Of a DNA stretch of 14,362 bases, positions 1,317 to 13,159 are shown piece by piece. Source of the DNA: a bacterium. GTDB lineage: Bacteria; Patescibacteriota; Minisyncoccia; Minisyncoccales; DAOVPY01. The notes under the pieces are model-generated. The model was not told where the DNA came from, searched no databases, and was given only the letters and a program-made list of their open reading frames with translations. Where the stretch lies: contig JAUVKU010000019.1 in NCBI GenBank assembly GCA_030596105.1, positions 1-14,362 on the forward strand, in the 5' to 3' direction. Position 1 is the first letter of the stretch. The number at the start of each line of letters is the position of its first letter. The position numbers and the translations under genes were made by a program.

Positions 1317-1378
1317 CATACTTTTTTATTTGTTAGGTTTAGAGCTAGCTCTATACATAAAATATAGCTAGAAAAAAA

Positions 1379-1425
1379 GCTGACCCTGCGTAAGCGGTCA
1401 GCTATTTTGTTTTGGCTTTATTTAA
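1379..1425. repeat. Copy 1 of the hairpin repeat (GCTGACC-N10-GGTCAGC + TATTTTGTTTTGGCTTTATTTAA). It is a bidirectional terminator-like element, with an A-run 5' and a T-rich tract 3'.
   Basis: Perfect 7-bp GC-rich inverted repeat with a 10-nt loop. Preceded by A7 (1372-1378) and followed by a T-rich tract. The same element recurs at 2418, 3722 and 5957. Confidence 0.8.
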
Positions 1426-3700: not shown

Positions 3701-3721
3701 AGTAATATTTACACGATTTAA

Positions 3722-3768
3722 GCTGACCCTGTATAAGCGGTCAGCTATTTTGTTTTGGCTTTATTAAG
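3722..3768. repeat. Copy 3 of the hairpin repeat (GCTGACC-ctgtataagc-GGTCAGC + TATTTTGTTTTGGCTTTATTAAG).
   Basis: Same stem and tail as the other copies. It lies between the ATPase2 promoter and the 3' end of the Nudix gene. Confidence 0.8.
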
Positions 3769-3853: not shown

Positions 3854-4435
3854 CTATTTGTTAAAATAATTTTTTTCTACAAAATCAATTCCTGCTAAAG
3901 TGTTTTTTTCTTTTACAATTTCTCTTGCTCTTTTTGGGCTTAACCAATTTATCTCATAAAATTCTTCCAACACTTTATCAGCATCAGGCTTAAAGCTGTC
4001 TTTATCAACCTTAATAAAATACCAAATATCATAATGACGCTTACATGTTTGTTTGGATGGATTGTTAATTTTAGTAATAGTAAGTAAAGCCGGGTTTTTA
4101 ATCTCAAACATACTTATATCTAGCCCCCACTCCTCGTTAATTTCTCTCCGCAAGGCCTTACTCATTGTTTCTCCTTTATCAATATGTCCGCCATTAAACA
4201 GCCATAACCCGGATTTTTTATGGTGTCCAATAAAAACCTGTTTAGACTTTGGGTCATAAGCGGCAAAATAAACACAAAAATGACTCTCAGAATTTTCCTG
4301 AATTGTGAGCTTGTTTTTCTCAATTCTTTTTAAAAAACTTGCTACAATTGGGCTGTGGTTAAAACCGGCCAATAACTCTTCTAGCTCCTTAGATAAATTT
4401 TTATTAGCATTTGTCATTTTTTTATCTTTAACCAT
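3854..4435 (-). CDS. Nudix-family hydrolase.
   Basis: 193-aa ORF with a clear Nudix box, GGHIDKGETMSKALRREINEEWG (GX5EX7REUXEEXGU). Confidence 0.8.
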   Translation of the reverse strand: MVKDKKMTNANKNLSKELEELLAGFNHSPIVASFLKRIEKNKLTIQENSESHFCVYFAAYDPKSKQVFIGHHKKSGLWLFNGGHIDKGETMSKALRREINEEWGLDISMFEIKNPALLTITKINNPSKQTCKRHYDIWYFIKVDKDSFKPDADKVLEEFYEINWLSPKRAREIVKEKNTLAGIDFVEKNYFNK

Positions 4436-4493
4436 TTAAAATTATTTTATAACTTAATTCAAATATAGCAAAAGAAAGAGCTTGGAGCAAATA

Positions 4494-5468
4494 ATGACAA
4501 AAATTCTTATTTTTGATAAAATCAAATTAATACTAAAATCATTTTTTATGAAAAATTATCTATTACGAATTGAAAAAATAAAAAAGCAATGCGCTATTTC
4601 CGAGAAAGAGCGCTTTACAGCCGCTCCCAGCGGCACTAATTATAAAGTTTTTCTTTCAAATAGTTATGTTATCCGTTTTCGGGATGACAACACTGAGCTT
4701 TTATTAGAAGAAGTTAATTTTTTAAAACAACTTAAACATAAACTAATACCAAAAATTTTGTGGTCAGGAAAAATTGATCAATCATTCTTTATAGTTGAAA
4801 ATAGACTCCTGGGACAAACAATAGATTCAGTTTGGAAAAATCTTTCAATAAATAATAAAAATAATATAATTGAGCAGGTTGTTAAATTTTTACAGTATCA
4901 GAGAACTCAAACAAAAAATTATGTTTACTCAGTAAAAACAGGCAAAAAATATAAAAATTTTTTAGATTATCTCACAGACGGTATAAAGCAAAAAAATATT
5001 GATATCAAAAAATTTAAGCAAGCAAATAAATTATTAAATGATTTATTTTTAATTATTAATGACCCTAAAATAAAACAATTATTTTCCACTAAGACAAAGG
5101 CGGCCTTAGTTCACGGCGATCTTATTATTCATAACTTGCTTACAGATGGTAAAAATCTAACCGGAGTCCTTGATTGGGAGCTGGCACTATGGGGCGATCC
5201 TGAACATGACCTTTTTCGGCTTTTTTATTATCAAGAATGCGCTAAAGCCTACCAGGAACAAGGCACTGATGAAACATTTGAGGCTGATTATATGGACAAG
5301 CTAACCACAGCGATTTTGAAATCAAATCTGATAGAAGATAAAAAAATATTCCAGAAAAAATATCAATTTGTACGCGCTATTTTTTATCTCAACGCGCTTC
5401 ATTGGGCAGTAAATTCAGATAATCCAAAAAGAAATATCAATGAGCTTACAGGGCGGTGGGATAAATAA
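4494..5468 (+). CDS. Kinase of the aminoglycoside/choline/MTR-kinase (APH, PF01636-like) phosphotransferase family. Substrate unknown.
   Basis: Catalytic-loop motif HGDLIIHNLL and the DWE motif (VLDWELALWGD) are present. The ATG at 4494 is preceded by GGAG (4484-4487). The track ORF starts 4 codons earlier at TTG 4482. Confidence 0.7.
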   Translation: MTKILIFDKIKLILKSFFMKNYLLRIEKIKKQCAISEKERFTAAPSGTNYKVFLSNSYVIRFRDDNTELLLEEVNFLKQLKHKLIPKILWSGKIDQSFFIVENRLLGQTIDSVWKNLSINNKNNIIEQVVKFLQYQRTQTKNYVYSVKTGKKYKNFLDYLTDGIKQKNIDIKKFKQANKLLNDLFLIINDPKIKQLFSTKTKAALVHGDLIIHNLLTDGKNLTGVLDWELALWGDPEHDLFRLFYYQECAKAYQEQGTDETFEADYMDKLTTAILKSNLIEDKKIFQKKYQFVRAIFYLNALHWAVNSDNPKRNINELTGRWDK

Positions 5469-5916: not shown

Positions 5917-5956
5917 CAACCACAAACCACAAACACAACATTATCAATAAAAAAAA

Positions 5957-6003
5957 GCTGACCTTGTATAGACGGTCAGCTGTTTTGTTTTGGCTTTATT
6001 TAA
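5957..6003. repeat. Copy 4 of the hairpin repeat (GCTGACC-ttgtatagac-GGTCAGC + TGTTTTGTTTTGGCTTTATTTAA). Its tail supplies the stop codon of the minus-strand ORF 6000-6188.
   Basis: Same stem and tail as the other copies. Preceded by A8. Confidence 0.8.
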
Positions 6004-6188
6004 TTCAATTTCAAATAATCATCTTCAAGCCCTAAGTATGCCTTTGTTATTCTTTCTCCGTTTTCAAAACCAAACTTTTTAAAAATTTCTTCCAATATTC
6101 CCTTTGATATTTTTACCTTTTTTTTATTGCAATAAGTATAAAAATAAAACAAAAAAACTATACTTTGCATATAGTTTATTAATACCAT
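6000..6188 (-). pseudogene. Short minus-strand ORF or gene remnant. Its C-terminal 37 aa (KISKGILEEIFKKFGFENGERITKAYLGLEDDYLKLN) look protein-like and its N-terminal half is low-complexity. It contains an A8 tract. Possible truncated or degraded gene.
   Basis: 62-aa ORF ending exactly in the repeat tail. It has no SD. The upstream half overlaps the promoter region of the plus-strand operon. An 8-A homopolymer sits inside the ORF. Confidence 0.2.
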
Positions 6189-6255
6189 AAATTTGTATTT
6201 GGTGAGGCGCTAACAATAAATACGCAAAATATTCACAAATAAACTTACGAGTGGC

Positions 6256-6353
6256 TTTACAAAAAGCTAAACAAATGCTATAGTATTTCGAACCACAAGG
6301 TAGTCTTAAAAAAGTGAAAAGATCTTATACAATTTTAAAAAAAGGAGGATAAA
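6256..6353 (+). promoter_or_regulatory. Promoter and leader L1: TTTACA (6256-6261), 17-nt spacer, TGcTATAGT (-10 at 6279-6284), a ~60-nt leader, then SD AAGGAGG (6341-6347). About 85% identical to the promoter and leader of the convergent SerRS operon (L2).
   Basis: Direct comparison with the reverse complement of 10968-11075. The -35, spacer, -10, leader core (...CCAAG.TAGTCTT...AAAAGATCTT.TACAATTT.AAAAAAGGAGG) and SD are all conserved. Confidence 0.7.
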
Positions 6354-7577
6354 ATGGGATATAAACAAAAGTATTCTGAAATTGTTAATTTAGAAGCCGT
6401 AAATGAATTTATGACTGAAAGAGGATGGCAAAGGCGCTCGTGTGATACATGTGGTAGGACTTTTTTCTCTAAACCATCTACCAAAATTGATGTATCGATA
6501 TGTGGCTGGCATAAGTGCAATAAAGGACATTATCAATTCTGTACTTACTCCAAGCGTAAAAAGATGCTAGAACCTGTGCAAATTAGCTCAAAGATGAGTA
6601 AATATTTCCGCTCAGTCGGTTTCGAGCTAATAACACCTCGGAACATCGCTAATTTCAAAGGTCAGACTGACTTGGTCATCGCTGGTGTACAAATATTCGA
6701 TGATGTCATCCATCATAACCAAAAAATCTGCAAAGACAAAATGTTCGTGGTGCAACCATGTGTACGTATGCAATTCCAACCGCATGTCGAGTCACAAGAA
6801 GGGACATCGACATCTTTCGTAAACGTATGTACTGAAAATATGGAAGTAAATTTTAGAGAACATCTACAATTAGTAGATCACTGGTGTACGATTCTCTCAA
6901 AACTCGGACTTCACATGAACGATTTCATTATTACTATAAGAACATCAGTCAAAGACTGGGGGACCGGAAAATTCTCAGCACTTGAGCTCTTTTTCTCCTA
7001 CGGAGGACTCGAGCTTGGAGATGCCACCTATCTACTTATTCCCCAAGCGAGCCGGTCGGCTATCTCGATTAGTGATATTGGATTCGGACTCGAAAGAATT
7101 GTTTGGGCTATCAACAAAACCGATTCCTACTTCGATACGCTAATTCCTTGGACAGCGAATGGCACGCGTGAAATGTTCGACTCATGTCGAACGCTTGCGC
7201 TTCTGATTCTTTGTGGAGTACAGGCAACAAACAAGGGTCCAGGCCTCCAGTTTAGACGATTTGCAAAAGTGATTAGTGGAAAATACTACGGTGCGAATAT
7301 ATATGGCATTTTAAGGTATTATTTCGATTACTGGGCTCAATTCATTGAGCCGTCTATCAGCCGAGAATCCGCCATTCATCTCGCTCGTTTGGAGATCGAA
7401 AGATTCGTCAATCTGAAAATCTATAAAACTTTAAAACTCCCATCGCCTCGTGATGAAACGACAGAAACCTATTTCAATCGTTTGGTGTATACTTACAATA
7501 TCAACATTTATAAATTGCGTAAAGCAATGCAGGACGTGTTACCAAATGCCGAAAATCAGTACATTTCCAATTCTTAG
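6354..7577 (+). CDS. Paralog of the alanyl-tRNA synthetase catalytic (aminoacylation) domain. Truncated at 407 aa, with no tRNA-recognition, editing or C-Ala domains. It has a Cys/His-rich N-terminal extension (CDTCGR...ICGWHKCNKGH...C).
   Basis: Collinear matches to AlaRS N-terminal motifs. FRSVGFELITP..DLVIAGVQIFDDV resembles FL.FF.SKGH..V.SSSLVP.NDPTLLFTNAGMNQFKDVF. QPCVR matches the motif-2 region QRCVR. DIGFGLERIVWAINKTDSYFDT matches DTGMGLERIAAVLQ..NYD.DLF. LLILCGVQATNKGPGLQFRRFAKV matches FLIADGV.PSNEGRGYVLRRIIRR. The strong SD AAGGAGGataaaATG supports the start. Confidence 0.75.
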   Translation: MGYKQKYSEIVNLEAVNEFMTERGWQRRSCDTCGRTFFSKPSTKIDVSICGWHKCNKGHYQFCTYSKRKKMLEPVQISSKMSKYFRSVGFELITPRNIANFKGQTDLVIAGVQIFDDVIHHNQKICKDKMFVVQPCVRMQFQPHVESQEGTSTSFVNVCTENMEVNFREHLQLVDHWCTILSKLGLHMNDFIITIRTSVKDWGTGKFSALELFFSYGGLELGDATYLLIPQASRSAISISDIGFGLERIVWAINKTDSYFDTLIPWTANGTREMFDSCRTLALLILCGVQATNKGPGLQFRRFAKVISGKYYGANIYGILRYYFDYWAQFIEPSISRESAIHLARLEIERFVNLKIYKTLKLPSPRDETTETYFNRLVYTYNINIYKLRKAMQDVLPNAENQYISNS

Positions 7578-7644
7578 CGGCTTAAATAAGCTAAAAAATG
7601 GAAAACAATCAAAAATAGTCGTTTAGCAACAGTCCCCTATAAAC

Positions 7645-8340
7645 ATGCAAAACATAAAGGAGCACAATCGAATATATTTGTCGGGGGGTGGTAATGAGAA
7701 ACAATCATTTCCCCTCGACAAATTTTTTTTTCGTACATTGCCTAAAAATGGACGCTTTTTATATATACCTATAGCACTCCGTGGCCATAAGCTTTATGCC
7801 ACAACACGTTTTTGGATGAAGGGTATCACAAAATTTCACAAAAGAATAGATGTTCAGTTTGAAACAATGGATAATCCGTCAAAATATCAACTTAAAGATT
7901 TAAAAAAGTTTGATGGAATATATATAGGTGGTGGCAATACATGGAGCTTAATTCAAGAATTTAAAAACTCTGGATTAGCTAATATTTTGATTCAGTACAT
8001 TAAAGCCGGGGGTCATATATATGGAGGAAGTGCGGGAGCAATTATTATGGGGAAAAGAATTGACACTCACGATGATGAAAATAAAATGAATATAAAAGAT
8101 GTGTCTGGCTTTAATATCCTTAATAATTTTTCGATAACCTGTCATTTTACAGATGAACAAAGTAATAGATTTAAAGCATGGGCTATAAATAATAACTTAC
8201 CAATTATTTGCTTATCAAAAGAAACCGGCCTAATTATAGAAAAAAACGTCGCTTTATGCGTTGGCACTAAACCTTGCATTATTTATTTTGCCGATGGCAC
8301 AAAACTGAAAGTTACTCCTAAAAAATCTTTTAATCTATAA
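7645..8340 (+). CDS. Peptidase family S51 (PepE alpha-aspartyl dipeptidase / cyanophycinase-like).
   Basis: GIYIGGGNTWSLI matches PepE IIVGGGNTFQLL. GHIYGGSAGAII matches the catalytic Ser motif YIGWSAGANL. TCHF matches the catalytic His region NPHF. Confidence 0.75.
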   Translation: MQNIKEHNRIYLSGGGNEKQSFPLDKFFFRTLPKNGRFLYIPIALRGHKLYATTRFWMKGITKFHKRIDVQFETMDNPSKYQLKDLKKFDGIYIGGGNTWSLIQEFKNSGLANILIQYIKAGGHIYGGSAGAIIMGKRIDTHDDENKMNIKDVSGFNILNNFSITCHFTDEQSNRFKAWAINNNLPIICLSKETGLIIEKNVALCVGTKPCIIYFADGTKLKVTPKKSFNL

Positions 8341-8343
8341 AAA

Positions 8344-8372
8344 AGTACCCATATCTTAACGACATGGGTACT
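8344..8372. terminator. Bidirectional rho-independent-like terminator between the convergent operons: AGTACCCAT-N11-ATGGGTACT, with an A-run 5' and an AT-rich tract 3'.
   Basis: Perfect 9-bp inverted repeat (8344-8352 and 8364-8372). It sits in the 43-bp gap between the convergent stops at 8340 and 8384. Confidence 0.6.
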
Positions 8373-8383
8373 GAAATAATTAT

Positions 8384-9643
8384 TTAAAACAAATTTAATT
8401 CTCCTTTCACAATCTTCTGAGTAGTCTTGTTAATGTCGGCCAAATTGCGTTCGACAATCGCTTCGATCATCTGACGCTGATTAGACATTACTTTTTCACC
8501 ACAGACTTCAACACATGCAAACCATGGATTTGACAGACTTCTGCCCATCTGGGATGTCAGATATACATATGTTTCAAGTCCAATGAAACGATAAATCTCA
8601 TCAGAAATCAAAGAACAGATGGCGGTGTAAAGCTTGCCCACATGATAGACAGGATTCTTACCACAACAAGCCTCCATGCTCATATGCCGGGTAAATGGAA
8701 TAACGCCATTATGCCGATTACCTCGACCAACGACACCTTCGTCGCCACTCTCAATAGCGCTTCCCGTCAATGTGAGATAATAATCCGATTTGTTCAAGTT
8801 GTCTCTCGTGTTAAGCGAAACAGTGACATCGAACTGCCCAAACTTAGATACTACCAATTGCTTAATAAAATCTTCAAGGAATTGGAGCTTCTTAAAATAG
8901 AACTCCTTATCTGGGGTATAGACTGCAATAAACGGAATACAAACAGTGATACCTAAACGCTTTTTCATACGTTTGACCATTACCTTAATATCTGTGCCAA
9001 CATAGGGATAAAGCTTTTTGAACTCCTTCTCATTCAACGTGGTCTCAATGAACATCACGATTTTCTCGGTGGTGCTAAGAGGGCTATAAGCCACAGCCGT
9101 CGAGGTATCGTTGGAGCGCAGGTTGTTATCATGAAAAATCGCAAACTCCTTCTGTGGAATCTCAAAAAAGAACTGGCGTTCATTCTGTGTCGATCCATCA
9201 GCTTCGTATACAACACCGGGACCAGGCGCGCAATGAGTATTATCAACGATTGTGAGCCATTGATCCAGATCAAGAAGCGGCAGGACATTAACAAAATGCT
9301 TATAGACCGTCTCTTTGACAATCTTAAGATAAGGAATGTCTTCTTGCTGATAAGTTCTAGTAAACCGGCAGTTGAGATAAAGCCTAATCGGTTTTTGCAT
9401 CTCACCGCCACCGAACTTGACCTTTGTGGCACCACCCGACAATGCAATCTTGTCAACCATGTGCCGCAAGATGATACCATAGCGTTTTAAACAGTATTGT
9501 GAATACGCTTGAGACACTTTTTCTGCAATTGTGTCACAGAGAGTGTCAGGATGACCGATGCCTTTGCGTTCGACGATCTCAAATTCTGTGTTGTTGATGC
9601 TAGGCGTTCCTGACGAATAAACGAGTAAATTTTCTTTGTCCAT
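8384..9643 (-). CDS. S-adenosylmethionine synthetase, archaeal type (MAT; PF01941 family).
   Basis: GIGHPDTLCD matches the archaeal MAT GxGHPDSxCD. LTGSAIESGDEGVVGRGNRHNGVIPFTRHMSMEACCGKNPVYHVGKLY matches the archaeal MAT signature LTG(T)SAE.GDDG.VGRGNR.NGLI.P.R.MSMEAA.GKNPV.HVGKIY. Strong SD (AAAGGAGGtaataaATG) 34 nt downstream of the serS stop, so the two are co-transcribed. Confidence 0.85.
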   Translation of the reverse strand: MDKENLLVYSSGTPSINNTEFEIVERKGIGHPDTLCDTIAEKVSQAYSQYCLKRYGIILRHMVDKIALSGGATKVKFGGGEMQKPIRLYLNCRFTRTYQQEDIPYLKIVKETVYKHFVNVLPLLDLDQWLTIVDNTHCAPGPGVVYEADGSTQNERQFFFEIPQKEFAIFHDNNLRSNDTSTAVAYSPLSTTEKIVMFIETTLNEKEFKKLYPYVGTDIKVMVKRMKKRLGITVCIPFIAVYTPDKEFYFKKLQFLEDFIKQLVVSKFGQFDVTVSLNTRDNLNKSDYYLTLTGSAIESGDEGVVGRGNRHNGVIPFTRHMSMEACCGKNPVYHVGKLYTAICSLISDEIYRFIGLETYVYLTSQMGRSLSNPWFACVEVCGEKVMSNQRQMIEAIVERNLADINKTTQKIVKGELNLF

Positions 9644-9677
9644 TTATTACCTCCTTTATAGGAATGTTAACCCAAAA

Positions 9678-10967
9678 TTAAAATTTTCTAGCTTTCGGTT
9701 TGATATATTGCAATCCTGTGTAATCTTGTAAAATTTCAGGAATTAACACTGTTCCGTCGGCCTGCTGGTTATTCTCGAGGATGGCGAGTATCGTTCGAGT
9801 AACAGCCACAGCTGTGCCATTGAGAGTATGAACGAAGTCGATCTTGCCAGTCACCCTATTCTTAAATTTAGTGTTCAATCGGCGTGCCTGGAAATCCGTA
9901 CAATTAGATGCAGAGGTTACTTCGCCGTATCCGCCACCTTCGCCGATAAAAGGCATCCATGCCTCAATATCATACTTTCGGTAAGCAGGCGTTCCGAGAT
10001 CGCCCTTGCACATAAGTAAAACTCGGTAAGGAAGCTCCAGTGCTTGGTAAAATTCTTCTTCAATCGCAAGCATCTCTTCGTGAACGATTGCACTTTTGTC
10101 TGGATGAACAAACTGATAAAGCTCAACTTTACTAAACTGGTGCACACGGTAGAGACCCTTACTTTCTCGACCACCACTTCCTGCTTCTGTCCTGAAACAG
10201 TGGCTGACACCCGAAATCTTGATTGGAAGATTTTTTTCCGGAATCACAGCATTAGCCATATAACCACCAAGAGTAATTTCAGAGGTGCCTATAAGGCTTA
10301 ATGCCCCTTTGGTCAGAGAATAAATTTGACTTTCAGGACCTCGCGGAGAGAATCCGGAAGCAGTGATGATCTTGTCACGAGCAATCTCCGGTGTCGTCAC
10401 CGGAGTAAACCCATGCTTAATTGCCAATTCTAACGCATAGCGAATAAGACCGAGCTCCAGAAGAACAGCTTCGTTCTTTAAAAAATAAAATTTGGAGCCA
10501 GTGACTTTTGCTGCTGCCTCGAAATCCAGGATATCCAATTTTTTGCCTAACTCGACGTGATCAAGTGGCTTGAAACCAAACTTAGTGGGCTCTCCGATGT
10601 ATTTAATAGGAACATTTCCGTATTCATCCTTGCCCTGTGGTACGTCCGATGCAACAAGATTAGGTATCTTAAGCATCTCCTCAGTGTACTCGTTTTCCAC
10701 AAACACAATCTCATCCTTAATGACCGCTATAGTTTGTTTGAGACCAACTACCTCTGCCTTGAGTTGTTTGCGAGTTGTCTTATCAGCACTCTTGAACCGT
10801 CCAGCAATCTGATTGGAACGACGCTGAATTTCTTCAAGACTCTGTCGCTTTTGTTTCAGTTGTCCATAAAGAGTAACTACTTTATCGACATCCACATTAG
10901 CATAGCGTTCACGCGTGTTCTGTTTAATTAAATCAACGTTTTTAAGAATAAATCTAATATCCAACAT
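9678..10967 (-). CDS. serS: Seryl-tRNA synthetase. Full length, with an N-terminal coiled-coil plus class II catalytic core.
   Basis: 429 aa. The motif-2/3 regions SHCFRTEAGSGGRESKGLYRVHQF, LELPYRV, GDLG and HTLNGTAVAVTRTILAILENNQ are typical of SerRS. SD AAGGAGG is upstream. Confidence 0.9.
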   Translation of the reverse strand: MLDIRFILKNVDLIKQNTRERYANVDVDKVVTLYGQLKQKRQSLEEIQRRSNQIAGRFKSADKTTRKQLKAEVVGLKQTIAVIKDEIVFVENEYTEEMLKIPNLVASDVPQGKDEYGNVPIKYIGEPTKFGFKPLDHVELGKKLDILDFEAAAKVTGSKFYFLKNEAVLLELGLIRYALELAIKHGFTPVTTPEIARDKIITASGFSPRGPESQIYSLTKGALSLIGTSEITLGGYMANAVIPEKNLPIKISGVSHCFRTEAGSGGRESKGLYRVHQFSKVELYQFVHPDKSAIVHEEMLAIEEEFYQALELPYRVLLMCKGDLGTPAYRKYDIEAWMPFIGEGGGYGEVTSASNCTDFQARRLNTKFKNRVTGKIDFVHTLNGTAVAVTRTILAILENNQQADGTVLIPEILQDYTGLQYIKPKARKF

Positions 10968-11075
10968 AACATATTCCTCCTTTTTTGAAATTGTAAAAGA
11001 TCTTTTTATCTCTCCAAGACTATCTTGGAATTCAAAATACTATAGCATTTGTTTGGTTTTTTGTAAAGTCAAATT
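10968..11075 (-). promoter_or_regulatory. Promoter and leader L2 for the serS-MAT operon: -35 TTTACA (plus 11062-11067), 17-nt spacer, -10 TGcTATAGT (plus 11039-11044), and a leader with a CCAAGA-TAGT-TCTTGG hairpin and SD AAGGAGG. Duplicate of L1.
   Basis: The reverse complement aligns base-for-base with 6256-6350 at roughly 85% identity. Confidence 0.7.
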
Positions 11076-11183
11076 TTTAATCAAATCCCCACAAACAACC
11101 AAATAACCCCTAAAACAACCCATTAACAAGATAACACATAAATTTAAAACTTATCTGATTTAAGTATTTTCTAACACTTTTTA

Positions 11184-11372: not shown

Positions 11373-11401
11373 TTGACGTATTTTTTATTTTATGCTATAG
11401 T
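11373..11401 (+). promoter_or_regulatory. Promoter: TTGACG (11373-11378), 17-nt spacer, TGcTATAGT (-10 at 11396-11401). It drives the ~300-nt leader upstream of the SPFH gene.
   Basis: Near-consensus hexamers with an extended -10 TGc motif, the same motif as in L1 and L2. Confidence 0.6.
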
Positions 11402-11407
11402 AATTTA

Positions 11408-11704
11408 TCAAACAAATAAATATATTCCCCCTAAAAATTGTTCGGCATCAAAATGGTGCTGGGCTATATCTTATTCTTTAGGCTCATCGGGTAGTGCGGG
11501 TCTGATATTGATAGTAAACATAAGTAAAAACCGCGTTAATTATCAGTATCAGACCCGAACAAGCATGGGGATGCATAGGTAATATATTGAACTCAAAAAA
11601 ATATTTACCGCTACTACCCGATAAGCGTGGAGAATAAAAAAACTGGAGGGAGTGATTCACCGCGAATCGCCCTTTGACAACTAAATAAAAAATGGAAGGA
11701 AAAG
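11408..11704 (+). ncRNA. Long structured 5' leader or candidate cis-regulatory RNA of unassigned family. An outer helix ATCGGGTAGTGCGG (11485-11498) / CCGCtACTACCCGAT (11609-11623) encloses a 16-bp hairpin GGGTCTGATATTGATA (11497-11512) / TATCAGTATCAGACCC (11539-11554). A possible long-range TCCCC (11426-11430) / GGGGA (11567-11571) pairing is also present.
   Basis: Complementarities were found by eye. The segment is roughly 300 nt with no convincing ORF (track ORF 11373-11582 begins at the promoter -35). The GC-rich pairing segments stand out against the AT-rich background. Confidence 0.35.
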
Positions 11705-13159
11705 GTGATAAAAATGAGTGACACTGTAAAAAAAGAAATCGGAAAATACAAGAGAGAAGGGGAAAAGGAAATGGAGTGCCATCTTAAAGTCATGGACATT
11801 TTAACTGACGAAAAGAACAAAGCTATATCAGCTTTTAAAAGCAAGGGAATTTGGAAACTCTGGACAAAAAAATATGTCAATAATATCATCAAGGCAGCAA
11901 AAAAATACAATAAACGACTGCATGATAGAGACATATTTGACGAGTCAATCAAGCCATCTAATGATAGCTCTTACAAATTTAATGAAGATGAAATGTACGA
12001 ATTGCCAGCTATCATTAAAGCCGATAGAAAAGAAAAAATAGATTTGGAAAAAAAACTTAATGAAGCTAAAGAGCCAGAAAAAGATGCCATTGAGAAATCA
12101 ATCAAGCTCTTGGAAAACAGGATTAAAGATTTTGATGAAAAGCTGAAACTGCACCGCAAAGACTTCAGCGAAGGACAAGTTAAATCTATTGAGCTGGCTG
12201 AGCTTGAATCAATTCTGATGAAAAAAATCAGGCAAAAGACTGGTTGTGAAAGAATTAATAATTTTTGGATTGCTATTGTTTTATCTCTCCAGTACTTATC
12301 CCTGTTATCAATCTATCTCCTTAATATTTTTACCGATTTTGGAGTAAATTCTCTCTGGTCATTACCAGCCACTTTGGCTTTATTCGCGCTTATTCTTATT
12401 GGTAGTTTTAGAATTGTTAACCAAAACCGAGAATGGAGCATGAGCTTGTTGGGTAAATATGTAACCACTTGGGAAGCTGGTCTTCACTTTAAAATTCCAC
12501 TTCTTATGAAAGTGGACAGTAAAATCTATCTTGGCACTCTGGTTAAAACCCTGTATATGGACGAAAGAAAACGCGGTGATGGCAACGAAAAAATTAGCGC
12601 CAAAGTTGATTTTGCTAACGGCTCTGCCGAAGTAATTACTGAGCTGTTTATTAGAATCTTTGATACCTATAATTCTACTTATCTAATTGATAACGTAGTT
12701 GAATCAGTTAAGGAAAAGATGGAAGCCGGAATCCGTGCTTACTACGGACCGATCTCAATTGATCAAGCAATTGAAACCCGAGCGGAAGTTTATCTTCGGA
12801 AGATAATTTCTCAGGGCGCGACTGAAGCTGATAGATTTAAAGCATGGGGAACAATTATTGAAAGCTTAGCGGTTACCGACATTAAATTGCCGCCTGATCT
12901 GGAGAAAAAAAGAAACGAAGTTTTGATGGCGGATAAAGATTATGAAATATCCAAAATCAACAAAGAGAAAGAGGTAGTAATTGCTAAAACTGTAAAAATT
13001 CGTGGCAAAGGACGCGGTAATGAAATTAAATCCTTGTCAAAATCATCTGGGATATCCGTGCCTGAAGCTGTCCAATATGACTTAACTGAACGACGTTACG
13101 CTGCTTGGGCTAAGGCCGGCGTTTTAATCGCTAGCGACTCTGAAAAAACAACCGAATAG
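11705..13159 (+). CDS. SPFH/band-7 (stomatin/prohibitin/HflKC-like) membrane protein with an unusual ~190-aa N-terminal charged coiled-coil domain and two predicted TM helices. It probably extends to 13295 through a frame change; see findings.
   Basis: SPFH core: RIVNQNREWSMSLLGKYVTTWEAGLHFKIPLLMKVDSKIYLGTLVKTLYMD...ITELFIRIFD...DIKLPPDLEKK. SD aaGGtGA lies 7 nt upstream of the ATG. Confidence 0.8.
   Translation: MIKMSDTVKKEIGKYKREGEKEMECHLKVMDILTDEKNKAISAFKSKGIWKLWTKKYVNNIIKAAKKYNKRLHDRDIFDESIKPSNDSSYKFNEDEMYELPAIIKADRKEKIDLEKKLNEAKEPEKDAIEKSIKLLENRIKDFDEKLKLHRKDFSEGQVKSIELAELESILMKKIRQKTGCERINNFWIAIVLSLQYLSLLSIYLLNIFTDFGVNSLWSLPATLALFALILIGSFRIVNQNREWSMSLLGKYVTTWEAGLHFKIPLLMKVDSKIYLGTLVKTLYMDERKRGDGNEKISAKVDFANGSAEVITELFIRIFDTYNSTYLIDNVVESVKEKMEAGIRAYYGPISIDQAIETRAEVYLRKIISQGATEADRFKAWGTIIESLAVTDIKLPPDLEKKRNEVLMADKDYEISKINKEKEVVIAKTVKIRGKGRGNEIKSLSKSSGISVPEAVQYDLTERRYAAWAKAGVLIASDSEKTTE

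What the first reader, a model, noticed from the sequence alone, without database searches (positions are those of the whole stretch)
6256..11075. Two convergent operons carry a duplicated ~95-nt promoter and leader cassette
6256-6350 (plus strand) and the reverse complement of 10968-11067 are about 85% identical across -35 TTTACA, the 17-nt spacer, -10 TGCTATAGT, a ~55-nt leader and SD AAGGAGG. Elements ending at an SD are not usually duplicated by chance in an AT-rich genome. The duplication implies that the AlaRS-like/S51-peptidase operon and the serS/archaeal-MAT operon are co-regulated as one regulon. In L2 the leader contains the hairpin CCAAGA-TAGT-TCTTGG, whereas L1 has CACAAGgTAGTCTTaa at the same place, which is imperfect, so the regulatory signal is not obviously a conserved helix. 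It could instead be a protein-binding site.
Basis: seen in the sequence. Interest (0 to 1): 0.75.

Follow-up and report, generated by a model that had tools for sequence, protein, structure and literature searches.

The report
Duplicated promoter-leader cassette of a CPR gene module
Two convergent operons in this Patescibacteria contig really do start with near-identical copies of one promoter plus 5' leader, and dozens of related metagenome contigs carry a short conserved leader "box" in front of the same genes, which points to one shared and so far undescribed control element.

Summary
Window 6252-6351 (+) and 10972-11071 (-) are a 98-100-nt inverted repeat, 82/98 identical (local score 62; shuffled null 10.7±2.0). 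It runs exactly from the -35 to the SD; the flanks and coding sequences are unrelated.

It is not a generic promoter. The TGCTATAGT -10 recurs elsewhere in the window, but the leader does not.

The four genes (AlaRS-fragment-like, S51 peptidase, archaeal-type MAT, SerRS) form a module found on more than 70 Patescibacteria contigs in several gene orders. A ~13-nt box (GWWCNTTYACAAY; window AGATCTT[T/A]TACAAT) lies 18-28 nt before the start codon of ALA-like, serS and MAT. Of 36 box+SD+ORF hits in 593 kb, 34 are these three genes; shuffles give 0-5.

Many relatives also have a 5' hairpin (P1) with compensatory changes. The window keeps it in L2 (7 bp) and only weakly in L1 (4 bp).

In the four two-copy genomes where this could be judged (of six compared), the two copies resemble each other more than any orthologue. 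That fits recent duplication or gene conversion between the inverted copies.

Best reading: a module-specific cis-regulatory leader acting on the mRNA near the ribosome-binding site. The factor is unknown. There is no Rfam match and no literature. This is a new member of a known kind; interest is moderate.

The parts
6252..6353 (+). Cassette copy L1: promoter plus 5' leader of the ALA-like/S51 operon
   Evidence: Inverted repeat with 10972-11071. The covariance model of relatives' leaders matches 6309-6348 at 15.4 bits, E 0.01-0.04.
6256..6284 (+). L1 promoter: -35 TTTACA (6256-6261), 17-nt spacer, extended -10 TG-C-TATAGT (6276-6284)
   Evidence: Consensus scan. 28/30 identical to L2.
6297..6307 (+). 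L1 weak hairpin AAGG-TAG-TCTT, the degenerate counterpart of P1
   Evidence: Read from the sequence. The single-sequence fold is no better than shuffles, z +0.67.
6320..6333 (+). L1 leader box AGATCTTATACAAT, ending 20 nt before the ATG
   Evidence: Aligns to the box columns of the relatives' model. Same position as in the 31 box hits upstream of ALA/SER/MAT.
6344..6348 (+). L1 Shine-Dalgarno GGAGG, preceded by an A7 run; ATG at 6354
   Evidence: Sequence.
6354..7577 (+). AlaRS-catalytic-fragment-like protein (407 aa), first gene behind L1
   Evidence: No Pfam hit. TIGR03683 E 1e-11, far below its cutoff. PDB 2ztg E 7e-7. AF2 model pLDDT 85.6; best fold hits are archaeal AlaRS, E 1e-15, TMq 0.64. 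About 180 homologues, mostly from Patescibacteria.
7645..8340 (+). Peptidase S51 (PepE/cyanophycinase-like), second gene behind L1
   Evidence: Pfam PF03575 E 2.7e-24. In relatives its ATG lies 3 nt after the ALA-like stop; in the window there is a 67-nt gap and no SD.
8344..8372 (.). Terminator hairpin between the convergent operons
   Evidence: 12-bp stem followed by a T run on the - strand; sequence.
8384..9643 (-). Archaeal-type methionine adenosyltransferase, second gene behind L2
   Evidence: PF01941 E 1e-107; NF003364 E 1e-96.
9678..10967 (-). Seryl-tRNA synthetase, first gene behind L2
   Evidence: TIGR00414 E 2.5e-140, above its cutoff.
10968..11071 (-). Cassette copy L2: promoter plus 5' leader of the serS/MAT operon
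   Evidence: Inverted repeat with L1. The covariance model matches 10976-11027 at 30.7 bits, E 5e-8 to 2e-7.
11039..11067 (-). L2 promoter: TTTACA (11067-11062), 17 nt, TG-C-TATAGT (11047-11039)
11013..11029 (-). L2 hairpin TCCAAGA-TAG-TCTTGGA (7 bp), at the position of P1 in relatives
   Evidence: MFE fold. The equivalent P1 helix in relatives covaries. The model does not align the window hairpin to P1 by sequence.
10990..11003 (-). L2 leader box AGATCTTTTACAAT, ending 23 nt before the ATG
   Evidence: Strict box regex hit. L028 has nearly the same form, AGATCTTTCACAAT.
10976..10980 (-). L2 Shine-Dalgarno GGAGG; ATG at 10967-10965
   Evidence: Sequence.

Best explanation
L1 and L2 are paralogous copies of a lineage-specific promoter plus 5'-leader cassette. 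The cassette heads the transcription units of a conserved Patescibacteria gene module: AlaRS-fragment-like protein + S51 peptidase, and SerRS + archaeal-type SAM synthetase.

Shown:
- The copies are homologous from the -35 to the SD.
- A ~13-nt box (GWWCNTTYACAAY, with a GWACCTTGAAAC variant) lies at a nearly fixed distance (18-28 nt) upstream of the start codon of ALA-like, serS and MAT. This holds across gene orders, including inside the serS-MAT operon. It is always on the sense strand and is almost absent from other genes.
- Many relatives add a 5'-proximal hairpin (P1) that covaries and tolerates G.U pairs.

Inferred:
- The box works on the mRNA next to the ribosome-binding site. It would act as an operator or enhancer for an unidentified trans-acting factor, most simply a protein that blocks or helps 30S binding. 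ALA-like, SerRS and MAT would then be translated in step.
- P1 is an accessory 5' stem, for stability or presentation, that the window genome has shortened in L2 and nearly lost in L1.
- The high L1/L2 identity outside the box comes from recent duplication or gene conversion between the two inverted copies 4.6 kb apart, not from selection on every base.
For: Repeat and its limits.

Module conservation and layouts: the tblastn map of 70+ loci and the gene tables.

Box specificity:
- The strict regex gives 34 hits in 593 kb on both strands. 31 of them lie 18-28 nt (one at 63 nt) upstream of ALA/SER/MAT on the gene's strand.
- Box+SD+start+ORF gives 36 hits: ALA 15, SER 10, MAT 9, HAD-first-gene 1, GreA-like 1. 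Shuffles give 0-5.

Evidence for action at the mRNA level:
- Box-like elements sit before the MAT SD inside serS-MAT operons.
- The translationally coupled S51 gene has none.
- The distance from the box to the -10 varies from about 17 to 50 nt, while the distance to the ATG is narrow.

P1 helix:
- Hand-built alignment of 14 leaders, window excluded: 98.2% of cells paired, 3 pairs and 10 cells with double changes, 0/500 shuffles, slid controls 27-67%.
- Model-made alignment of 30 distinct rows: 89.9% paired, 4 pairs and 16 cells with double changes, 0/500 shuffles on cells paired, cells with a double change and covariation score (20/500 on pairs with a double change, 2/500 on further pair types).
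- U.G and G.U cells occur on the sense strand.

Concerted evolution:
- Within-genome identity is 100 (L027), 96 (L013), 83 (window), 81 (L015), 78 (L036) and 72 (L009), against a between-genome median of 71.
- The in-genome partner is the best match in L027, L013, L036 and the window.
- The closest relatives' leaders score at null level against the window cassette, yet they keep the box.

No third copy exists in the window.
Against: - No transcription start, RNA or binding data exist, so the TSS and the mRNA-level action are inferred.
- Single-sequence folds of L1 and L2 are no better than shuffles.
- The window hairpins are not aligned to P1 by the model, and L1 has lost most of the stem. The only helix with covariation is therefore dispensable here.
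- Type B leaders lack P1 altogether.
- The box is invariant in its ACAA core, so it offers no covariation test.
- Predicted accessibility of the box is only slightly above the rest of the leader (0.57 vs 0.49, p 0.008), and those segments include untranscribed DNA.
- Exceptions exist. In L006 the serS box sits about 85 nt from the ATG. In L050, L063 and L006 the layout is convergent but the two leaders are unlike.
- Several 100% repeats in relatives sit at contig ends and may be assembly artefacts.
- Only ±10 kb around the module was sampled, so the specificity of the box genome-wide is unknown.
- The P1 alignment was hand-fitted, and many sequences are related.
Confidence: 0.6

Rival explanations
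1. DNA-level operator. The box is the binding site of a transcription factor that sits downstream of the start site of each module promoter and represses it by roadblock, or activates it. The leader RNA itself has no role.
For: - The box is a short, sequence-conserved and largely unpaired element, as expected for a protein site.
- Some versions show a weak dyad, TTGT-N6-ACAA (L011, L015, L010).
- The cassette always carries its own promoter.
Against: - The dyad is not maintained: TAGT, TAGC, CCGT and CAGT occur as left halves.
- The box is always on the coding strand (all 34 module hits).
- Its distance to the start codon is tight while its distance to the -10 varies about three-fold.
- It recurs in the 35-45-nt serS-MAT intergenic spacer, where no promoter is evident.
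- The neighbouring P1 helix shows RNA-type G.U tolerance.
Confidence: 0.2
2. Small riboswitch. P1, the A-rich linker, the box and possibly a loop-box pseudoknot form a ~55-nt aptamer. It would sense a metabolite tied to the module, for example SAM, serine, or an aminoacyl or nucleotide compound, and would control SD access.
For: - The architecture is a covarying stem, then conserved unpaired nucleotides, next to the SD.
- It is associated with a SAM synthetase gene in every layout.
- P1 loops often read YUGUN, which could pair with the invariant ACAA of the box. By my own reading of the loop and box sequences, not a computed test, 6 of 13 give the full three-pair match.
Against: - No Rfam family matches, including all SAM classes and preQ1, even at E<=1 in the window or in six relatives.
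- Type B leaders, and window L1, lack a solid P1 yet keep the box.
- Loop-box pairing is absent in about half of the sequences and cannot covary, because ACAA is invariant.
- No SD-sequestering helix covaries. The CCAG/CUGG pairing was checked by eye and rejected.
Confidence: 0.1
3. No dedicated regulation. The similarity is a by-product of DNA rearrangement. A strong promoter/RBS block was copied when the module was reshuffled, and homologous recombination between the inverted copies keeps it alike. The box would simply be part of an efficient translation-initiation region.
For: - Identity within genomes exceeds identity between genomes.
- In relatives the repeats extend well beyond any functional element: L013 378 nt at 91%, L027 220 nt at 89%.
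- The module occurs in at least three gene orders among close relatives.
- The -10 form TGCTATAGT is generic in this genome.
- The same flank is found next to ALA in L025 and next to serS in L057, which may mean the module flips.
Against: - The box persists where the rest of the leader has diverged to null similarity.
- It persists before three different genes, in layouts without any repeat (Type B), and down to ALA-like proteins of 44-55% identity.
- It is nearly absent from roughly 400 neighbouring genes that also need efficient initiation.
Confidence: 0.12

Closest known systems
E. coli thrS translational operator (ThrRS autoregulation)
   Same: A short leader element placed directly upstream of the SD of an aminoacyl-tRNA synthetase gene. 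It is a hairpin plus single-stranded segments within the 30S footprint, so a bound protein would compete with the ribosome. This is the working model preferred here.
   Different: - No anticodon-arm mimicry. P1 loops are variable, and the box is not closed by a stem.
- SerRS does not read the anticodon (established knowledge).
- The element also precedes non-synthetase genes: MAT, a HAD-like gene and a GreA-like gene.
- The binding factor is unknown.
T-box riboswitch leaders of aminoacyl-tRNA synthetase genes
   Same: Leader-based control of aaRS genes, often including serS in Firmicutes, and shared by several operons of one amino-acid pathway.
   Different: The leader here is about 60 nt rather than 200-300 nt. 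It has no Stem I/specifier, no T-box sequence and no terminator/antiterminator. Rfam finds nothing at E<=1.
Short SAM riboswitches on metK (SAM-III/SMK box, SAM-II/V, SAM-VI, SAM/SAH)
   Same: Compact elements (about 50 nt) next to the SD of a SAM synthetase gene that act on translation.
   Different: There is no match to any of these models and no ASD-SD helix. The element also heads serS and the ALA-like operon, and the MAT here is the archaeal type.
Concerted evolution of inverted duplicates (e.g. tufA/tufB, rRNA operons, chloroplast inverted repeats)
   Same: Two copies in inverted orientation within one genome stay more alike than orthologues in other genomes do. The accepted cause is gene conversion or recombination.
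   Different: The unit here is only about 100-380 nt of non-coding promoter/leader flanking a 4.6-kb gene module, not the genes themselves. Conversion is inferred from identities only.
5'-terminal stem-loop mRNA stabilisers (ompA, aprE, ermC leaders)
   Same: P1 lies within about 5-10 nt of the predicted start site and has no U-tract. This fits a protective 5' stem.
   Different: The P1 lower stem is conserved in sequence (AGAAA/UUUCU), which is more than a generic stabiliser needs. The function is untested.

Membership tests
T-box riboswitch | Match to the T-box covariance model (Stem I with specifier loop, conserved T-box sequence, antiterminator) | tested here: not met
   cmscan against Rfam 15 at E<=1 found no T-box in the window or in six related loci.
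T-box riboswitch | Leader of about 200-300 nt ending in a terminator or SD-sequestering helix | tested here: not met
   The leader is about 63 nt from the predicted start to the ATG. No terminator-like site was found in it.
SAM riboswitches (SAM-I to VI, SAM/SAH, SMK box) | Match to any Rfam SAM-class model | tested here: not met
   No hits at E<=1.
SAM riboswitches (SAM-I to VI, SAM/SAH, SMK box) | Ligand-dependent structure change | not testable with these tools
   Needs in-line probing or ITC.
thrS-type synthetase autoregulatory operator | Hairpin loop that mimics the anticodon loop (or another identity element) of the cognate tRNA | tested here: not met
   P1 loops vary: UUGUU, UAAC, UGU, UGG, UAUC and others. 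The box resembles anticodon-loop strings only without a closing stem.
thrS-type synthetase autoregulatory operator | Element lies inside the ribosome-binding region upstream of the SD | tested here: met
   The box ends 18-28 nt before the ATG in 31 of 34 strict hits.
thrS-type synthetase autoregulatory operator | The synthetase binds its own leader and represses translation | not testable with these tools
   Needs binding and toeprint assays.
Structured cis-regulatory RNA leader (generic) | Helix supported by compensatory changes across species | tested here: met
   P1 in relatives: 98.2% and 89.9% of cells paired, 3-4 pairs with double changes, 0/500 shuffles on cells paired, cells with a double change and covariation score (20-30/500 on the count of pairs with a double change). 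Caveats: the alignment was fitted to the structure and the sequences are related.
Structured cis-regulatory RNA leader (generic) | The same helix is present in both window copies | tested here: inconclusive
   L2 has a 7-bp hairpin at the same place and L1 only 4 bp. Folds are not better than shuffles. The model does not align either copy to P1.
sigma-70-type promoter with extended -10 | -35-like hexamer, 17-nt spacer, TGn + TATAAT-like hexamer | tested here: met
   TTTACA-17-TG-C-TATAGT in both copies, 10/12 matches plus TG. Activity was not tested.
Invertible DNA segment / transposon bounded by inverted repeats | Both orientations of the segment are present, or a recombinase/transposase and target duplications exist | tested here: inconclusive
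   The same flank lies beside ALA in L025 and beside serS in L057, in strains whose modules are 99.4% identical, but short-read mis-joining cannot be excluded. No flip was seen in L011/L013/L014. The module contains no recombinase.

The most novel reading that the evidence does not exclude
The box, with P1 where present, may be the operator of a previously unrecognised regulon in Patescibacteria. It would tie a truncated AlaRS paralogue, an S51 peptidase, SerRS and an archaeal-type SAM synthetase into one functional pathway, occasionally with a HAD nucleotidase, an NDK-like kinase and a GreA-like factor. Control would be either by one of the module's own synthetase-like proteins binding its mRNAs, or by a new small ligand-sensing RNA. 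In addition, the inverted cassette copies would let the 4.6-kb module flip and be reshuffled between gene orders.
Probability: 0.3. Interest if true: 0.7.

Novelty: new member of a known kind. Interest (0 to 1): 0.5.

Why it matters
Patescibacteria (CPR) have tiny genomes, are mostly uncultured, and almost nothing is known about how they regulate genes. A conserved leader element restricted to one gene module gives a concrete, testable handle on their regulation.

It also flags the module itself as a probable functional unit whose purpose is unknown. The module is SerRS, an archaeal-type SAM synthetase, an S51 peptidase, and an AlaRS catalytic-fragment paralogue with no Pfam family.

The repeat also explains why short-read assemblies of these organisms often break into contigs of about 4.6-5.2 kb at this locus. 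It shows how non-coding promoter/leader blocks can evolve in concert. If the box proved to be only a good ribosome-binding context, the finding would reduce to an ordinary duplicated promoter.

Tried and rejected
1. Scan of 185,579 species genomes for the shared 20-mer AAACAAATGCTATAGTATTT. There were two hits (Lachnospiraceae, Legionellales) whose similarity stops at the 20-25-mer, so they are chance. The source genome is not in that collection.
2. Rfam at E<=1 on the window and on six related loci. Nothing overlaps any leader.
3. Single-sequence folding of L1 and L2. Not better than shuffles.
4. RNAalifold on a raw MAFFT alignment. No structure was found because stem and loop lengths shift the register. 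This was solved with an N-padded hand alignment and a covariance model.
5. A tRNA gene consistently next to the module, or tRNA mimicry. tRNA genes of many types occur nearby without pattern. CUUGAAA equals the tRNA-Ser(UGA) anticodon loop of L048 and UUYACAA looks like a Val loop, but no closing stem exists, so this was set aside as numerology.
6. The box as the -35 of a second promoter. -10-like hexamers follow only in the AT-rich window and not in relatives.
7. An SD-sequestering helix between the 5' CCAG and CUGG of the SD. It does not covary.
8. A mini-hairpin within the box (UUGU-N6-ACAA). The left half varies without compensation.
9. A loop-box pseudoknot. It is possible in about half of the leaders and cannot be tested because ACAA is invariant.
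10. Inversion polymorphism. None in L011/L013/L014; ambiguous in L025 vs L057.
11. Fetching the nearest relatives to find window-type cassettes. They have the divergent gene order and unrelated leaders apart from the box.
No description of the motif, the module or the AlaRS-like family was found.

Full report
**1. The observation**

Window 6252-6351 (+) and 10972-11071 (-) form a 100-nt inverted repeat, 80% complementary without gaps. With one gap, 82 of 98 positions are identical. The local score is 62, against 10.7±2.0 (maximum 19) for 1000 first-order Markov resamplings of the two upstream regions, a looser null than an exact dinucleotide-preserving shuffle.

The similarity begins 3-4 nt before the -35 and ends at the SD. 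The promoter is 28/30 identical and the leader 44/57. The 60 nt upstream of the -35 (21/60) and the coding starts are unrelated.

Both copies read TTTACA-17-TG-C-TATAGT, followed by a leader of about 63 nt, an A-run, GGAGG and ATG. An independent Logan contig is 100% identical over 6006-11156.

L1 drives an AlaRS-like ORF and an S51 peptidase. L2 drives serS and an archaeal-type SAM synthetase. A hairpin terminator lies between them.

**2. Not a generic promoter**

The extended -10 TGCTATAGT also occurs at 11393-11401, before an unrelated leader. One-mismatch forms occur at other places: 10 matches against 3.1±1.7 expected. That part of the cassette is therefore ordinary for this genome.

The leader is not ordinary. 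A covariance model built from relatives finds only L2 (30.7 bits) and L1 (15.4 bits) in the window. The next window hits are A-rich SD regions.

**3. Organism and module**

Homologues of both first genes come almost only from Patescibacteria/CPR metagenome contigs, and they share contigs. A metagenome scan with an alignment of the AlaRS-like protein gave 72 loci. Together with the loci fetched by exact protein look-up, a tblastn map covers 76 loci plus the window; three more loci fetched later have their gene order from the look-up tables. These show that the ALA-like gene, S51, MAT and usually serS stay together in several orders:
- Type A, as in the window: ALA> S51> <MAT <SER.
- Type B: <SER ALA> S51> <MAT, with a divergent intergenic region of about 190 nt.
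- Type C: MAT and SER divergent.
- A distant clade at about 30% identity: MAT> ALA> S51>.

The ALA-like protein has no Pfam family. Its predicted fold (pLDDT 85.6) best matches the catalytic plus tRNA-recognition part of archaeal AlaRS (E 1e-15, TMq 0.64, 14-17% identity).

**4. The conserved core: a leader box**

I aligned the upstream regions of all loci. They reveal a ~13-nt box: GTTCATTYACAAY or GTACATTCACAAC in Type A leaders and in stand-alone MAT leaders, and GWACCTTGAAAC or GTTCATTGAAAC in Type B ALA and SER leaders. In the window the box is AGATCTTTTACAAT (11003-10990) and AGATCTTATACAAT (6320-6333).

A strict regex finds 34 boxes in 593 kb on both strands. Of these, 31 lie 18-28 nt (one at 63 nt) upstream of the ALA, SER or MAT start, on the gene's strand.

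Requiring box + SD + start + ORF of at least 50 aa gives 36 hits: ALA 15, SER 10, MAT 9, one HAD-like first gene of an ALA operon, and one GreA-like gene. Shuffled sequence gives 0-5.

Further points:
- Box-like strings also precede the MAT SD inside serS-MAT operons.
- S51 is translationally coupled in relatives and has no box.
- The box extends to relatives with ALA-like proteins of 44-55% identity, but not to the 30% clade.
- The distance from the box to the -10 ranges from about 17 to 50 nt, whereas the distance to the ATG is narrow.

These features favour a function on the mRNA at translation initiation. Exceptions exist: the L006 serS box is about 85 nt from the ATG, and L050, L063 and L006 have the convergent layout with unlike leaders.

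**5. The hairpin**

Most Type A leaders start with a hairpin (P1): AGAAA-upper stem-loop-upper stem'-UUUCU.
- On a hand-registered alignment of 14 leaders, without the window, 98.2% of cells pair. Three pairs and 10 cells show changes on both sides, no shuffle of 500 reaches these values, and slid controls give 27-67%.
- On a model-made alignment of 30 distinct rows the values are 89.9%, 4 pairs and 16 cells; no shuffle of 500 reaches the observed cells paired, cells with a double change or covariation score, while 20/500 reach the count of pairs with a double change and 2/500 the count of further pair types.
- G.U cells on the sense strand indicate an RNA helix.

Caveats: both alignments are fitted to the structure and many sequences are related.

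In the window, L2 has a 7-bp hairpin at the same place and L1 only 4 bp. Neither is aligned to P1 by the model, and neither folds better than shuffles. Type B leaders lack P1. P1 is therefore real in relatives but accessory.

**6. Why the two copies are so alike**

In two-copy genomes the cassette copies are 100% (L027), 96% (L013), 83% (window), 81% (L015), 78% (L036, ALA vs MAT) and 72% (L009) identical. The between-genome median is 71%. Each copy's best match is its in-genome partner in L027, L013, L036 and the window.

In relatives the repeats can extend far beyond the promoter: 378 nt at 91% in L013 and 220 nt at 89% in L027. The window's nearest relatives by ALA-like protein (78-79%) have the Type B order (L085 has no serS beside the module), and their leaders score at the null level against the window cassette except for the box.

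The 84% identity therefore reflects recent duplication or gene conversion between inverted copies. Only the box reflects deep constraint.

Several 100% repeats at contig ends (L011, L020, L024, L025, L026) are probably collapsed or hairpin assemblies and were not used as evidence.

In one species pair, L025 and L057 (module 99.4% identical), the same flank lies next to ALA in one contig and next to serS in the other. This is either an IR-mediated flip or a mis-join. L011/L013/L014 show no flip.

**7. Mechanism**

Best-supported: a module-specific leader in which the box, next to the ribosome-binding site, is recognised on the mRNA by an unidentified factor. This would couple translation of ALA-like, SerRS and MAT. 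P1 would be a 5' stem for stability or presentation. The promoter is copied along with the leader.

Rivals, with evidence given in the structured fields:
- a DNA operator for a transcription factor;
- a small riboswitch, with no Rfam match;
- a purely recombinational by-product.

Ideas tested and dropped were tRNA mimicry, a second promoter, SD sequestration and a mini-hairpin in the box.

**8. Comparison and novelty**

In layout the element works most like the thrS operator, but it fails that family's defining mimicry feature. It is not a T-box or a SAM riboswitch by model search.

I rate it a new member of a known kind, namely cis-regulatory 5' leaders, embedded in a case of concerted evolution of inverted non-coding repeats.

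Interest is moderate at 0.5. However, the mechanism is inferred, and the genome-wide extent of the box could not be examined.

Noticed in passing
window 11405-11704 (+), after promoter 11373-11401, before ORF 11705-13159: A 300-nt stretch folds at -104.4 kcal/mol against -58.6±4.7 for shuffles (z -9.75, 0/200). Long nested helices are 11471-11495/11613-11637 and 11494-11519/11535-11560. No Rfam family matches at E<=1. This is a candidate unannotated structured RNA or long leader upstream of an SPFH/Band-7 gene.
   Followed up: partly
window 1372-1425, 2408-2461, 3715-3768, 5950-6003: A four-copy direct repeat family, 72-89% identical. It is a terminator-like hairpin AGCTGACC-loop-GGTCAGCT followed by TTTTGTTTTGGCTTTATTTAA, found after four different genes. 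The Logan contig of this locus ends at 6006, right at one copy.
   Followed up: no
window 6354-7577: A 407-aa protein with no Pfam family. Its fold matches the catalytic plus tRNA-recognition part of archaeal AlaRS (E 1e-15, 14-17% identity). It lacks the editing and C-terminal domains. About 180 homologues exist, almost all on Patescibacteria contigs, and always next to an S51 peptidase and MAT. Function unknown.
   Followed up: partly
window 7533-7644: In relatives the S51 start codon lies 3 nt after the ALA-like stop. The window has about 110 extra nt: a 14-aa C-terminal extension of the ALA-like ORF plus a 67-nt gap. There is no SD before the S51 ATG at 7645, so translational coupling seems lost.
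   Followed up: no
L015 7673-7808 (+) and ORF 7837-8817: A third, partial copy of that genome's ALA-type cassette, with a degenerate box GCACATTTATAACC. It points away from serS toward a 326-aa ORF that, from its sequence motifs alone (no family search was run), looks like a nucleoside-diphosphate-kinase-like domain fused to a P-loop kinase-like domain.
   Followed up: partly
L025 4571-4680 (-): A gene that looks GreA-like from its N-terminal sequence (163 aa; no family search was run), 2.4 kb from the module, has its own promoter, a hairpin, the box GCACATTCACAATC, an A-rich spacer and an SD. This is the only clear box outside the module in 593 kb.
   Followed up: partly
L030 969-1559; L031, L045, L054 equivalents: In four loci a HAD-like protein of about 196 aa (DxDxV motif, nucleotidase-like) is inserted as the first gene of the ALA-like operon. 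The full cassette (P1 + box) sits in front of it.
   Followed up: partly
L057 4148-4246 / 7615-7712; L025 6564-6717: L057 carries a 3.5-kb insert bounded by 99-nt inverted repeats (98%), relative to the matching flank in L025. That flank lies beside ALA in L025 and beside serS in L057. This is either module inversion or an assembly mis-join.
   Followed up: partly
contig lengths listed; L020, L026: About 20 of the 120 best ALA-like hits lie on contigs of 4.5-5.4 kb. L020 (4630 nt) and L026 (4610 nt) end on both sides in a 60-nt exact inverted repeat inside the cassette. Short-read assemblies seem to break at exact cassette copies.
   Followed up: no
L082 vs L083 (same ALA-like protein): Two contigs of one species differ in the module. 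L083 has MAT at 3956-5215, while L082 has an unrelated 245-aa ORF there and no MAT.
   Followed up: no
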